Shown piece after piece: positions 33,005 through 56,665 of a stretch of 64,000 bases of DNA. The notes beneath the pieces were generated by a model. That model had not been told where the DNA came from. It worked only from the letters and a program-made list of their open reading frames with translations, and did not search any database. The stretch's first letter is position 1, and each line of letters begins with the position of its first letter. A program made the position numbers and the translations under genes. Source of the stretch: Eledone cirrhosa (taxonomy: Eukaryota); assembly GCA_964016885.1 (NCBI GenBank), contig OZ024740.1, positions 333,312,001 to 333,376,000 on the forward strand, read 5' to 3'.

Positions 33005-33445
33005 AATTTGGCAAAGCTGGCCATTTATCGCTCGTATACAGGAAACTGACTGGCCAGTCTGCTGATATAAAAAACTGGCTGATCAGTGGAGCTGCTAATA
33101 TGCAGATCTGACTGATCAGCCAGTCTGCTAATATGCAAATCAGACCGATCAGTCATTGTGTATTTTTGAAAATAGCATATATTTTCACTAGCTCTGACAG
33201 TCTGGCAGGTGAACAGTCAGCTGTACTGATGAAGGGTGATACCCAGAAACATTAGTGTCTGCAGATCTGTTGACATGCCAACACAAGAGCAAGAATAAAG
33301 GGTTCCTTCTACTGACATGGCTATAAAATTGAGGCTAGTTTGCAAAATTGCAAACGAATCGAATGTTATTATTAATATTCAAAAAACTCAGTTTACATTT
33401 ATTGTATTCAGCCAGGTAGAGTGAACATTTTCTTTTATTTATATA
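33005..33445 (+). mobile_element. Hammerhead-bearing repeat (PLE pLTR or retrozyme monomer)
   Basis: Three 33-bp subrepeats with octamer-like motifs, then the ribozyme, then a tail (33314-33430) that recurs at 60180-60335 (+) and partly at 3880-3940 (-). Confidence 0.65.
33204..33279 (+). ncRNA. Canonical type I hammerhead ribozyme
   Basis: CUGUA-CUGAUGA-A-GGGU-GAU-ACCC-A-GAA-ACA-UUAG-UGU-C-UGCAG. Stem I is extended by AACAG/CUGUU and GGCA/UGCC across internal loops. Confidence 0.85.
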
Positions 33446-52200: not shown

Positions 52201-55035
52201 ACTAGTTAAGCGGGCGTTGACGGTGCCATCGTCAACAACAAGTGGTGGTTTGCTCTGAAAAGAGCGATTAGAATAGAATCCATTAGGTTTAGTAAGGCTT
52301 TAGCAATAGAGAAAAATAGAGCAGAGGGAGAACTAGTTAGAAAATTAGATGAGGCGCTTAGCAAAGGCATCGCGAATGACGTACTTGCGGCGAAATTGGC
52401 CCTTGACCAATTCTTCAATGCAAAGCACGAAGGCTGCGTTGTCAGAGCTAGAGTGCGTGCTCTCAGACACGAGGGGACGAAAGCCGTTCAATGGGCCCGA
52501 GTGGCGGAGGCGCGTCGTGGCGACAAAGCCACGATCCGGTCTTTGGTGGACCACGAGGGGCGCATACTACTCGATCCCGGGAAAATGTGTGAAGCTTTTC
52601 AGCGACACTTCGCTCAGTTGTTCGGGGGAAGCGGCGGGCCGGATCGAGGGATGGACTTTAGTGTCTACCTCGACGGACTGCCGCGGCTCTCGGCCACTGA
52701 GGCGGAGTGTTGCGAAAAGCCGATAACAGCCGCTGAAGTACGGGAGGCAATGACTAGCTGCACAAGAGGTAAATCGCCTGGTTTGGATTGTCTGCCCTAT
52801 GAACTTTACGTACAGATGCCAGACTTGTTCGGAGGCCTCTTGGCGGACGTCTACTGCAACTGGCAACAGAACGGGAGAATTTCCCAGCTCTGATTGCCGA
52901 GGAGCTGTGGCGCTGCTGAGAAAGGATCCGAAAAAGGGGGATAACATAGATAATTTTAGGCCCATATCTCTGCTAAACACAGAGTTCAAGATTTTGGCCA
53001 AGGTGCTAGCAAAGAGGTTGGCGCTTTTCGTTGGTGGTCTGGTGGGAGAGGCGCAGACATGCGCCATTCCCGACAGACCCATCCACGACAACCTCCACCT
53101 CATGCGATACATCGTAGAGAGGGTAGCTAGGGAACCTGGCACGGGTGGGTCCTTGATCAATTTAGATCAGTCGAAAGCTTTCGATAGGGTCGACCATCGT
53201 TACCTAGCGGCAGTCCTGAGGGCGGCTGGCTTTTAGCCCGTCTTCAGAGGCTGGATCGCTGCCATGCACAGCGACATCTGCTCTGTGGTGAGAGTGAACG
53301 GTCACCTTTCGGAACCGTTCAACATCATGCGCTCGGTTTGCCAAGGATGTCCCCTCTCGTCCCACTTGTACGTATTAACTCTCGAGCCATTACTGCACAA
53401 ACTGGAGACGTTGAGGGGAGTCCCGCGCGAACTAGGATGCGGAAGATCCGTGTCAGCATATGCAGACGATGTCACCGTATTGGTGTCGAACGCCAAACAC
53501 ACAGAGCCGATCGGCACTACACTAAAAGTATACGATCAATGATCAACCAGGAAAAGTCAGTGGGCCTGCAGCCCGGCACCTGGAGAGGCAGGTCCATGCC
53601 GTCCAACAGCGTCGTCGGGCGCTGGACAGACGGACCAGTTAAATTACTCGGGGTTTGGTTCGGTCCGGACCTCAAGACGGACAAAAACTGGTACGAGGTG
53701 ACGAGCAGGGTGGCTTCTCTAACCCAGAAATGGGACGAGAGGAAGCTATCCCTGAAAGCTCTAGCGGAGGTGACTAACGCGTATATCGCGGCCGTCATCT
53801 ACTACCGCCTGACCGTCGTACCTTGTCCTAATCCCCGCCTGACTGAGCTGGAGCGTTTGCTCTTTTGCTTTTTGTGAAAGGGACGCACTCCGATGGTCAG
53901 GCGGTCCATCTGCTGTCAACACCCGCTACGTGGAGGGCTGGGAATCCGTGGCTGATGACGCGCAGACACGCGTTCAGGCTATGACATCTCCACCTCTTCC
54001 TCGACGGTGATCAGGTGTGGTCTCCGTTTATTAGACGCGTCTTTCCCCAGCTTGTTTCTTTGACGGAGCTGCAGTCCTGGGTCAAGCGAAGACCGAGAAG
54101 GAGCGCTTGGAGACTGGAATGTGTTCAGGCGCTCACATCCCTCGACCAATCGGGCAATGTGATCGGTGGAAACTCCACCTTGGCGTTCTATAGAGGATTA
54201 GTGGAGGGGAAGAGCGACGACGTACTTGGGGAAACTCTAGGCGTCGACGAAATTCAACTAGCCAATCTCTTCGGAAGAACTGTCGGGCCAGGGCCTATGG
54301 ACAACTTCCAGAAATCCCTGGCCTGGCAGTGCTACCGAGGAGCTTTGCCAGTTCGGGATAAACTCAACAGGCATGGAGGTGCCGTCAGCCGGGCATGTCC
54401 GAGATTGGCGCAGGGCGACGAAACCGCCCTGCACGCACTCGTCCAGTGTCCGGGCATTGCTGACTTGTGGGTTTATGTCGAACACCTGCTGTCGCGTGTA
54501 GGACGGATCCAGCTATAAGCTGAGTCCATCGTGAGGATTGCCCCGCCCTCTTCCTTTAGCCGAGAAGGGCAGGCAGTTTTTATCTGTCTGGTGGCCATGG
54601 CGAAAGAGATAGTTTTTGGACACGTTTGAAAGGGCTGAAGACGAGCACTTAACTCTTCGGTGATGCCCTGATTAACTTTTTCAAATTTCAATTGAAAAGG
54701 AAAATCAGGGTAGAAAGGGAAGTGCTCTCTTCCCAGCATTTTGTTGAAAGATGAGTGAGAGAGGCAAGAATGGCCCGAGTGAATGGGCCTACTCTGAGTA
54801 TGTGTCTGTAAATTAAAGGTGGAAAACTGGGAGAGGGCACTTGCCCTGGTGGTCAGGGTCAATGTGGTCTTTTAATGGGCTTTCTCCACAAATGTCCCTC
54901 GGAAGTCTCCCCCCTACTGGGGAATTTTTCTTTGTTTTTTTTACACGCAGAAAAGCCCATTTGTACCGTCCTGTATTGTCCTGTACTGTTCTTAATGTCT
55001 ACTTTATGTACACCCTTGTGGTTAATAAAGAAAAC
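49218..55035 (+). mobile_element. Tx1/L1-clade element, apparently full length, decayed (copy 3)
   Basis: ORF1 from 49432 (CAVCGEGPH knuckle). ORF2 from 51409: LRIGSINARGL, VGDWN, YLDR, TDHK, FRPISLLN, DQSKAFD, QGCPLS, YADD. (ATT)n at both ends. Confidence 0.92.
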
Positions 55036-55080
55036 ATTATTATTATTATTATCATCATTATTATTATTATTATTATTGTT

Positions 55081-55645
55081 CTTTGAGGCTCAGTCATTGA
55101 TGTTATTCAACTGGAAAGTTTGTTGAAATAAATATCAAGCCACTACCTGCAGCCTCAGATATTCAGGACGTATTGGAGCGTTCTTGCTGTTCCCCGCAAG
55201 CATGCCTTTTGAACTGTTCCAAAAAGCAGGGCGGAACCAATTTTCTTTAACCATCCTTGGAAACTCTTTGAGATAGTATCTAGTACGCCTATGACATCGG
55301 AACCACTTGACTTCATGGCAGTTCCAAATCCTTTTTACCTCCCACTCTAAGTCCTGGTATCGGTTAATTTTCTCCCTCTCCTTCTCTTGCACTCTCGTGT
55401 GGCAGGCTACAACCACAATCAGGCATGACCTTTTTTTCCTTTTCCAAAACCACCAGGTCAGGTCTATTGTGTTCCAGTTTCTTGTCCGTCTGTATCCTAA
55501 AATCCCACAGCACCATCACCTGATCGTTCTCTATGACCGAGTCTGGCTTATGCTCATACCACTTCTCAGAATGTGGTAAATAGTTTACTTTGCATAGGTG
55601 CCAGTGGATCACCCTAATCATCCCATCATATCTCCAGCCTTTATA
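55081..55645 (-). mobile_element. Dong 3' fragment (second subfamily)
   Basis: HNRPDLVVL, EKINRYQDL and Dong 3' UTR next to (TAA)n. Confidence 0.88.
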
Positions 55646-55735
55646 ATGCTCGGTGTGTTTGTAAGCAAACATCCCGTATTAAGCAGTAGTATCCAGCAAC
55701 CATCGTTGCTCGTTTGTTCAACACTGACAAAGGAA

Positions 55736-55776
55736 CGCTGTACTAGTTTCAAGCTTATTAGCTATCGTCAGCAACG
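55736..55776 (-). ncRNA. Minimal type I hammerhead ribozyme (subfamily 2)
   Basis: CGUUG-CUGACGA-U-AGCU-AAUA-AGCU-U-GAA-ACUAGU-A-CAGCG. Confidence 0.85.
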
Positions 55777-56154
55777 AATACCTTGCTGCCAGATTGTTGA
55801 ACGTATATACTTACCTTATGAATACTAACGGCTGAGTAGCCCAATTTGCATATCGAGTGGGTTAATCGGCGGGGTGCACCGAAAACGATAAACGAAAAAA
55901 ATGAAACAAAATTTCATTTCCCACTCTTTGTACGGCTGTTACTTAAATATAAGTATGTACACGTACTTTCATATATGTATACAGACGTACAGTATTATGT
56001 ATATATATATACATACATGCACACATATATATATGTCCGTATGGATTCACGAACATTTATTATAATGTTCGGTGTGTTTGTAAACAAACATCTCGTATTA
56101 AGCTGTAGTGTCCAGCAACGATCGTTGCTCGTTTGTTCAACACTGACAAAGGAA

Positions 56155-56195
56155 CGCTGTACTAGTTTCAAGCTTATTAGCTATCGTCAGCAACG
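56155..56195 (-). ncRNA. Minimal type I hammerhead ribozyme (subfamily 2)
   Basis: Same motif 419 bp away. Confidence 0.85.
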
Positions 56196-56503
56196 TATAC
56201 CTTCCTGCCAGATTGTTGAACGTATATACTTACCTTATGCATATTAACGGCTGAGTAGCCCAATTTGCATATCGAGTGGGTTAATCGGCGGGGTGCACCG
56301 AAAACGATGAACGGAAAAAATGAAACGAAATTTCATTTCCCACTCTTAGTACGGCTGTTACTTAAATATGAGTATGTACACGTACATACATATATGTATA
56401 CAGACGTACAGTAGTATGTATATATACATACATGCACACATACATATATGTACGTATGGATTCACCGAACATTTATTATAATGTTCGGTGTGTTTGTAAA
56501 CAA

Positions 56504-56554
<51 letters not shown>

Positions 56555-56665
56555 TAAAAATGCATGTGTGTGTATGTGTGTGTGTGCGTGTGTATATATA
56601 TGTGTGTGTGTGTGTGTATGTGTGTGTGTTCGTGCCCTATTATTGCTGTACTATCTCTTACCATA

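What the first reader, a model, noticed from the sequence alone, without database searches (positions are those of the whole stretch)
55641..56507. Diverged sister array keeps the ribozyme by covariation
Seen: the 419-bp subfamily differs from the 472-bp one by many substitutions and indels, yet within the ribozyme the changes are structure-neutral. Stem I CGGUG/CAUCG becomes CGUUG/CAGCG (G-U swapped to U-G), the free core position 7 changes U>C, loop II changes AACA>AAUA, and stem III ACUAGU is invariant. Inference: selection on RNA catalysis, arguing that the repeat replicates through RNA rather than as plain satellite DNA.
Basis: partly seen in the sequence, partly recalled or inferred. Interest (0 to 1): 0.75.

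Follow-up and report, generated by a model that had tools for sequence, protein, structure and literature searches.

The report
Penelope-type hammerhead retrozyme under selection
This repeat is one of about 26,000 copies of a small non-coding element with a hammerhead RNA motif, predicted to self-cut, whose functional positions stayed unchanged across its subfamilies and whose insertions look like those of Penelope-like jumping genes, so it likely spreads through RNA; it is a new member of a known kind.

Summary
Both 419-bp units carry a type I hammerhead on the minus strand that differs from the 472-bp sister at the four positions named. The pair alone is weak evidence (4/41 differences inside, 54/230 outside, p=0.06), and the G·U/U·G swap is one inherited event. 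Across 87 insertion sites, subfamily-shared variants fall in 0 of 23 constrained ribozyme columns versus 51 of 173 flank columns (p=0.0008), while private mutation rates do not differ. The whole 41-nt motif is not significantly more conserved than flanks (p=0.12), and downstream hairpins covary more. Stronger evidence for RNA-based spread is insertion anatomy: about 26,000 dispersed copies, variable 5' truncation, two fixed 3' ends in (TA)n, and head-to-head arms pairing a short end with a 56-59-nt tail, as in Neptune-type Penelope-like elements of this genome. Verdict: an animal non-LTR retrozyme, likely Penelope-mobilised, likely cleaving as a dimer. Cleavage, expression and circles are untested, and no autonomous partner was identified by sequence. 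The scan noted similar two-armed retrozymes in other genomes before.

The parts
55641..56507 (-). 2.1 head-to-tail 419-bp units of a non-coding hammerhead repeat; 5'-truncated at 56507 against (TA)n; the normal 3' end is missing at the LINE junction
55736..55776 (-). type I hammerhead, downstream copy (C3 at 55771; predicted cleavage 3' of A17 at 55741); extended stem I spans 55717-55801
56155..56195 (-). type I hammerhead, upstream copy (C3 at 56190; predicted cleavage 3' of A17 at 56160); extended stem I spans 56136-56220
55844..55851 (-). octamer ATGCAAAT about 80 nt upstream of the core (second copy 56263-56270); candidate promoter element, untested
56114..56129 (-). hairpin downstream of the ribozyme (AGCAAC/GUUGCU here, GGCAAC/GUUGCC in the oldest-looking group, GGUGAC/GUUGCC in the 472 group); second copy 55695-55710
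   Evidence: read from alignments; coordinates
56050..56072 (-). hairpin around the UAUAAUAA loop with both-sided changes in 6 of 9 pairs across copies; another copy at 56465-56488
56305..56363 (-). 56-59-nt segment that forms the one-sided 3' 'tail' of insertions elsewhere (second copy 55886-55944)
56506..56556 (.). (TA)n microsatellite at the 5' junction; the usual target of this family
55036..55648 (-). 3' fragment of a multi-copy LINE with an (AAT)n tail that abuts the array and takes the place of its normal 3' end; its C-terminal motif resembles restriction-like-endonuclease LINEs (label recalled, not searched)
41534..43897 (.). sister 472-474-bp array: two arms joined 5'-to-5' near 42772-42777 inside (TA)n; left arm ends with the tail, right arm at the short end; hammerheads at 41847-41887 (-), 42321-42361 (-), 43136-43176 (+), 43608-43648 (+)

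Best explanation
This is a non-coding, high-copy repeat with a type I hammerhead in every unit, whose catalytic and paired positions are unchanged across subfamilies, and it is likely a non-autonomous retroelement (non-LTR retrozyme) copied into (TA)n microsatellites by a Penelope-like reverse transcriptase and GIY-YIG endonuclease. Shown: copy number, dispersion, insertion anatomy, position-specific conservation, pairing-preserving changes. Inferred: tandem copies are transcribed (possibly from an octamer-containing internal promoter); two adjacent hammerheads pair through the palindromic ACUAGU and cut the transcript into unit-length RNA; monomers are likely ligated into circles by a host ligase; the RT starts at a fixed site about 270 nt downstream of the cut site and runs past the cut site for up to several units, which needs a circular or multimeric template; a second arm often starts 56-59 nt further 5' and inserts head-to-head. 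Single-unit copies would be dead ends that mutate neutrally, while selection filters the few source copies.
For: Copies: 20,427 exact hits to a 25-nt flank pattern, 23,072 to a flank-anchored pattern, 26,004 summed over four stem-I states, controls 0. Selection: 87 sites; shared variants in 0/23 catalytic, stem II and helix III columns vs 51/173 flank columns (p=0.0008) and 5/8 tolerant positions (p=0.0003); private rates 1.6% vs 2.2% (p=0.11); 0 of 193 slid masks reach 0 and register shifts give 3-6. Pairing: 96.9% of 1,760 cells paired vs 31-45% for slid partners; 8 of 33 pairs change on both sides; the common one-sided changes (C-G/U·G, G·U/A-U in five pairs) keep pairing only on the ribozyme strand. 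Anatomy: of 71 3' ends, 34 tail, 29 short, 8 other; 57 of 63 run into (TA)n; 12 of 15 inverted pairs join one tail and one short end; 32 of 65 sites hold two or more ribozyme copies. The genome holds GIY-YIG elements (150 scored of 10,597 candidates) with RT ORFs up to 1,096 aa. One Neptune-type family shows the same short/tail rule (6 tail, 3 short of 9 ends; one of each in the L187 inverted pair) and a hammerhead of the same sub-architecture. Literature matches: PMC7229834, PMC4209133, PMC8557442, bioRxiv 10.64898/2026.07.22.740005.
Against: No cleavage, expression or circle was shown. No Penelope-like element among 50 GIY-YIG loci shares alignable sequence with the repeat apart from 3 nested copies, and tail similarity to nine 3' regions was marginal (best p=0.015 of 18 comparisons). 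The whole 41-nt motif is not significantly more conserved than flanks (p=0.12); four runs of 11-14 columns in the flanks and anchor, and one of 17 columns in distal stem I, are also invariant. Counting 10.1/11.1 as constrained weakens the result to 2/25 vs 51/173, p=0.03. The motif lacks the usual G10.1-C11.1 pair and cleaves after A or U, so it may be slow; the monomer's predicted fold traps the core. A cruder landmark count gave 16 tail/short and 11 short/short among 27 inverted sites. In the 2026 preprint only 1 of 9 predicted frog retrozyme dimers cleaved in vitro.
Confidence: 0.82

Rival explanations
1. The repeat is the pseudo-LTR of a protein-coding Penelope-like element, and the copies are truncated by-products made afresh from that element's RNA; selection acted on the autonomous element.
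For: The insertion anatomy is that of Penelope-like elements. Only 50 of 10,597 GIY-YIG candidates were inspected. A few free 5' ends are fused to Penelope-like fragments (L026, L070, L095, L160).
Against: Among 65 free 5' flanks (some are overlapping duplicates) no unique upstream sequence recurs as a common element body; the fusions are to different families and in both orientations. Upstream of a unit lies another unit, up to 7 copies in the unbiased set.
Confidence: 0.1
2. The repeat retrotransposes from linear multimeric transcripts and the hammerhead is kept for another reason (structure for RT binding, or a rare cut), so catalysis and circles are not part of the cycle.
For: Inserted 3' ends lie about 215 and 270 nt from the cut site, not at it. 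Hairpins outside the ribozyme covary more than the ribozyme. The motif has weak helices II and III.
Against: The unpaired catalytic nucleotides (11 columns) show no lineage-shared change while N7, H17 (never G) and loop II do, which fits chemistry better than fold alone.
Confidence: 0.06
3. Plain satellite DNA spread by unequal crossing-over or DNA-level copying, with the ribozyme pattern arising by chance or descent.
For: The pairwise comparison is not significant (p=0.06); the stem I swap is a single event, and 336 U·U copies are about what an average step in a lineage of this size would leave (my estimate).
Against: Dispersed short arrays with fixed 3' ends, variable 5' truncation, inverted arms and a one-sided tail, and the position-specific conservation.
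Confidence: 0.02

Closest known systems
Metazoan non-LTR retrozymes (Cervera and de la Pena 2020, PMC7229834; parts 2-4 of 6 read, supplement unreadable)
   Same: Short tandem units (150-450 bp reported; 419-474 here) with one type I hammerhead each, GC under 50%, no ORF, no LTR, thousands of copies, co-existence with Penelope-like elements; mussel examples of 350-390 bp.
   Different: Expression, cleavage and circles are shown there and untested here. That paper reports target-site duplications when present; here insertions sit in (TA)n where they cannot be read. Inverted arms with a short/tail rule are not described in the parts read.
Axolotl HHR_Amex1 and HHR_Amex2, newt satellite 2 (PMC7229834 part 3; PMC2220036 two passages)
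   Same: 1-bp helix III with a palindromic tetraloop (Amex1) and a U·U mismatch at the base of helix II (Amex2); both cut much better as dimers. Newt satellite 2 is cited as using an snRNA-type promoter.
   Different: This motif combines both weak features in one ribozyme, and its 10.1/11.1 position is C·A in one group and U·U in the rest. That the newt promoter includes an octamer is recalled; the 1994 paper was not held.
Animal retrozymes as non-autonomous Penelope-like sequences (Li, Clavereau, Pollet 2026, bioRxiv 10.64898/2026.07.22.740005; parts 1-3 of 5 read)
   Same: Proposes mobilisation by Penelope-like elements; monomers, dimers and multimers dispersed through genomes.
   Different: Their evidence is co-occurrence and pLTR homology in Xenopus; here no pLTR homology was found and the evidence is insertion anatomy plus a lineage-level conservation test.
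EN+ Penelope-like elements, Neptune clade (Craig et al. 2021, PMC8557442, 12 passages; Cervera and de la Pena 2014, PMC4209133, 12 passages)
   Same: 5' truncation, partial tandems, inverted 5'-truncated arm, one-sided tail, microsatellite bias, hammerhead near the 3' end.
   Different: No coding capacity; tail 56-59 nt against 30-40 bp described; helix II is 4 bp and stem I long (canonical type), not the long helix II of minimal pLTR hammerheads.

Membership tests
Type I hammerhead ribozyme | CUGANGA, GAAA and UH core in type I order with stems I-III | tested here: met
   11-nt core plus non-G H17 intact in 73 of 87 sites
Type I hammerhead ribozyme | G10.1-C11.1 pair at the base of helix II | tested here: not met
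   U·U in 60, C·A in 21, other in 6 of 87 sites; a U·U variant is published as active in axolotl, so this is not disqualifying
Type I hammerhead ribozyme | Rfam hammerhead model match | tested here: not met
   no hammerhead family among the listed hits (150 of 164 shown) or the 2 hits
Type I hammerhead ribozyme | Self-cleavage | not testable with these tools
   needs in vitro transcription
Non-LTR retrozyme | Short non-coding tandem units, one type I hammerhead per unit | tested here: met
Non-LTR retrozyme | Many dispersed copies and co-existing Penelope-like elements | tested here: met
Non-LTR retrozyme | Highly self-paired unit RNA | tested here: met
   circular-fold z-scores -4.5 (419) and -9.4 (472) against 40 shuffles; opposite strand -4.4 and -6.7, so partly due to the palindromic microsatellite-like segment
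Non-LTR retrozyme | Expression as linear and circular unit-length RNA | not testable with these tools
   only contigs of unknown kind were available
Penelope-mobilised element | 5' truncation, inverted arm, one-sided tail, microsatellite target | tested here: met
Penelope-mobilised element | 3' or pLTR sequence shared with an autonomous element | tested here: inconclusive
   none in 50 of 10,597 candidate loci; architecture shared with the L130/L176 family
Autonomous Penelope-like element (as its pLTR) | Continuation 5' into a shared RT/GIY-YIG body | tested here: not met
   65 free 5' flanks, no recurring body

The most novel reading that the evidence does not exclude
The family is a circular-RNA parasite whose genomic record can be read as a natural mutagenesis series for a dimer-only hammerhead: its RT start site is fixed far from the cut site, it borrows the RT of a Neptune family with the same hammerhead design (leaving mixed retrozyme-Neptune two-armed insertions such as L026), and it is transcribed from an octamer-containing module that a second, otherwise unalignable hammerhead repeat of this genome also carries at the same distance, as a shared snRNA-like promoter would be.
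Probability: 0.25. Interest if true: 0.6.

Novelty: new member of a known kind. Interest (0 to 1): 0.36.

Why it matters
Whether animal retrozymes need their ribozyme to spread, and which enzyme copies them, is proposed but not settled in the papers read. This family gives a genetic argument for both: catalytic positions are frozen in the lineages that amplified while inserted copies decay neutrally, and the insertions carry Penelope-type marks. It also offers young, near-identical tandem copies and a long Neptune-type ORF (1,096 aa, L173) for a direct test. The class itself, its dimeric hammerhead and the Penelope link are already in print.

Tried and rejected
Rfam scans gave only microsatellite-driven miRNA matches and no hammerhead. 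RNA search: no RNA holder listed; four runs of unknown kind were laid as contigs and say nothing on expression; two other coded organisms hold short related pieces at low depth, which I did not follow. Search for an autonomous partner by sequence failed. The G·U/U·G swap was rejected as stand-alone proof: it is one inherited event, and the 98% paired genome-wide count reflects linkage by descent; C-containing and A-containing states of that pair were not counted genome-wide. RNAalifold did not recover the first downstream hairpin because the subfamilies are offset by one base there, so that covariation is read by eye only. A branch-based count of changes on a tree was not obtained; the conservation test rests on allele counts among extant copies. 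A non-circularly permuted hammerhead, noted by the scan for other repeats in this genome, does not apply: this motif is in normal type I order. Literature searches listed no paper describing this family or a lineage-level selection test on a retrozyme; the supplement of PMC7229834 could not be read and bioRxiv supplements are closed, and either may list related repeats.

Full report
Observation. The window holds a 419-bp tandem at 55641-56507 and a 472-474-bp sister at 41534-43897. A descriptor scan of both strands found six copies of one type I hammerhead, two in the 419 array on the minus strand and four in the sister, plus one unrelated hammerhead at 33226. The two subfamilies are 82% identical over 337 bp. 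Three details were missed. The sister is two arms joined head-to-head inside (TA)n. Helix III is one base pair capped by the palindromic tetraloop CUAG, and helix II starts with U·U. Stem I continues past an internal loop for about 14 further pairs.

Family size. The window lies in a 3.0-Gb genome. A 25-nt pattern outside the ribozyme matches 20,427 times, a pattern anchored on both sides of the ribozyme 23,072 times, reversed controls 0. Four stem-I states sum to 26,004. These are exact-match lower bounds.

Test of selection. I fetched loci picked by flank patterns, not by the ribozyme core: 70 loci from the first 100 places and the first 30 of 705 places for an older-looking group (whose pattern overlaps distal stem I). 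All lie on contig C1. With the window this gave 146 units at 87 sites, one unit kept per site. Variants were called shared if four or more sites carried them and they clustered among nearest neighbours, otherwise private. Shared variants occur in 0 of 23 catalytic, stem II and helix III columns against 51 of 173 flank columns (p=0.0008), and in 5 of 8 tolerant positions (N7, H17, 10.1/11.1, loop II). Private rates do not differ (1.6% vs 2.2%, p=0.11), as expected if inserted copies decay neutrally and only source copies are filtered. Sliding the same 23-column mask along the unit never reached 0 in 193 positions (mean 6), and shifts of 1-5 bases gave 3-6. Against this: the whole 41-nt motif is not significantly more conserved (7/41 vs 51/173, p=0.12); the window pair alone gives p=0.06; I drew the mask after seeing alignments and left out 10.1/11.1, whose inclusion gives p=0.03; and other invariant runs of 11-17 columns exist.

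The stem I swap. Among the 87 sites the pair is G·U in 43, U·G in 28, A-U in 11 and other in 5. Genome-wide: R·U 17,283, U·G 8,192, U·U 336, R·G 193. Some U·U copies carry flank markers between the older group and the 419 group (L161, L164, L165), which suggests passage through a U·U intermediate. This is one event, and the association follows from descent, so it is weak alone. On an alignment of 55 sequences (53 of 62 candidates; I dropped 9, several with deletions, which favours intact pairs; the two window rows were cut short of the last hairpin), 96.9% of cells pair against 31-45% for slid partners, and 8 of 33 pairs change on both sides, 6 of them in a hairpin outside the ribozyme. The tool warns that relatedness inflates the shuffle control. 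Five common one-sided changes use G·U and keep pairing only on the ribozyme strand; one distal pair is mismatched in 11 of 54. Selection therefore seems to act on RNA structure along the unit, not on the ribozyme alone.

Insertion anatomy. Copies have variable 5' ends and two fixed 3' ends 56-59 nt apart. Of 71 ends, 34 carry the tail, 29 stop short and 8 are other; 57 of the 63 run into (TA)n; 12 of 15 head-to-head pairs have one of each (two pairs in L076 are a local duplication). A cruder count found 27 inverted sites of 65, 16 tail/short and 11 short/short. Craig et al. list 5' truncation, partial tandems, an inverted arm, a one-sided tail and microsatellite bias as marks of Penelope-like insertion. 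The 3' ends lie about 215 and 270 nt downstream of the predicted cut, and arrays run through the cut site for several units, so the template cannot be a linear cut monomer; a circle or an uncut multimer is needed (inference). The 419 array itself lacks its normal 3' end, which is replaced by a LINE fragment.

Partner. The genome has abundant GIY-YIG elements, mostly with the Neptune-type cysteine motif before the nuclease (label recalled), and RT ORFs up to 1,096 aa. None of 50 loci shares alignable sequence with the repeat except three nested copies. One family (L130, L176, L177, L180, L187, L191) ends in (TA)n with the same short/tail rule and carries a hammerhead with U·U at the base of helix II and a 1-bp helix III with a palindromic tetraloop. 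L026 joins a repeat arm 5'-to-5' to a terminal piece of that family without TA at the joint, but both arms end in tails, so a deletion between neighbours is also possible. Among 65 free 5' flanks no common element body recurs, which argues against the repeat being a pseudo-LTR by-product.

Mechanism. Shown: anatomy, copy number, conservation pattern. From literature: hammerheads with such a helix III cut poorly as monomers and well as dimers, and animal retrozymes form circles, probably through RtcB. Predicted here: ACUAGU self-duplex of -4.8 kcal/mol and a monomer fold that traps the core. Inferred: transcription of tandem copies, dimer cleavage, circularisation, and Penelope-type target-primed reverse transcription at (TA)n. 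An octamer lies about 80-90 nt upstream of the core, and a second hammerhead family (1,524 exact copies) has a similar 23-nt module at a similar distance (E=0.018); a promoter role is a lead only.

Comparison and verdict. This matches metazoan non-LTR retrozymes (PMC7229834) and the proposal that they depend on Penelope-like elements (bioRxiv 10.64898/2026.07.22.740005). Five literature searches listed no paper on this family; supplements could not be read. Earlier scan notes describe two-armed Penelope-mobilised retrozymes in other genomes and other hammerhead repeats in this one; look-ups by sequence and by nearby place returned nothing. Those notes suggest a cephalopod host, which I did not test. 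The finding is real and its conclusion is probably right, but it is a new member of a known kind. Interest 0.36.

Noticed in passing
window 33054-33270 (+): A second, unrelated type I hammerhead family (C3 at 33226; at least 1,524 exact copies, some in tandem about 430 bp apart and some inverted) with one or two octamers 85-126 nt upstream of the core in 6 of 8 loci; shares a 23-nt octamer module with the studied repeat.
   Followed up: partly
window 43898-46720: Inverted two-armed 3' remnant of a Neptune-type element (L115/L119 family) sharing the (TA)n run with the 472-bp array.
   Followed up: partly
L026:1270-2390: Repeat arm fused 5'-to-5' to the terminal piece of a Neptune-type family with no TA at the joint; other direct fusions to Penelope-like fragments in L070, L095 and L160.
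   Followed up: partly
L130:2138-2200; L176, L177, L180, L187, L191: Neptune-type family with a compact hammerhead (GAAA-capped 3-bp helix II on a U·U base, 1-bp helix III with palindromic tetraloop) and short/tail 3' ends in (TA)n.
   Followed up: partly
L173:975-4262 (+): [quoted passage not shown]
   Followed up: no
L135-L160: Older-looking subfamily with C·A at 10.1/11.1 and U at position 17; both sides of 10.1/11.1 differ from the U·U groups and neither state is a standard pair.
   Followed up: yes
L110, L173, L176, L180, L191: Further hammerhead-shaped motifs with long helix II near Penelope-like loci.
   Followed up: no
window 53500-55040 (+) and 55036-55648 (-): Two decayed LINE fragments meeting tail-to-tail at an (ATT)n run; both are multi-copy in the window.
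   Followed up: no
L171-L172 (G000:C1 near 96.99 Mb): A long, more decayed tandem array in which several copies share a change in the catalytic core, suggesting local DNA-level duplication after insertion.
   Followed up: no
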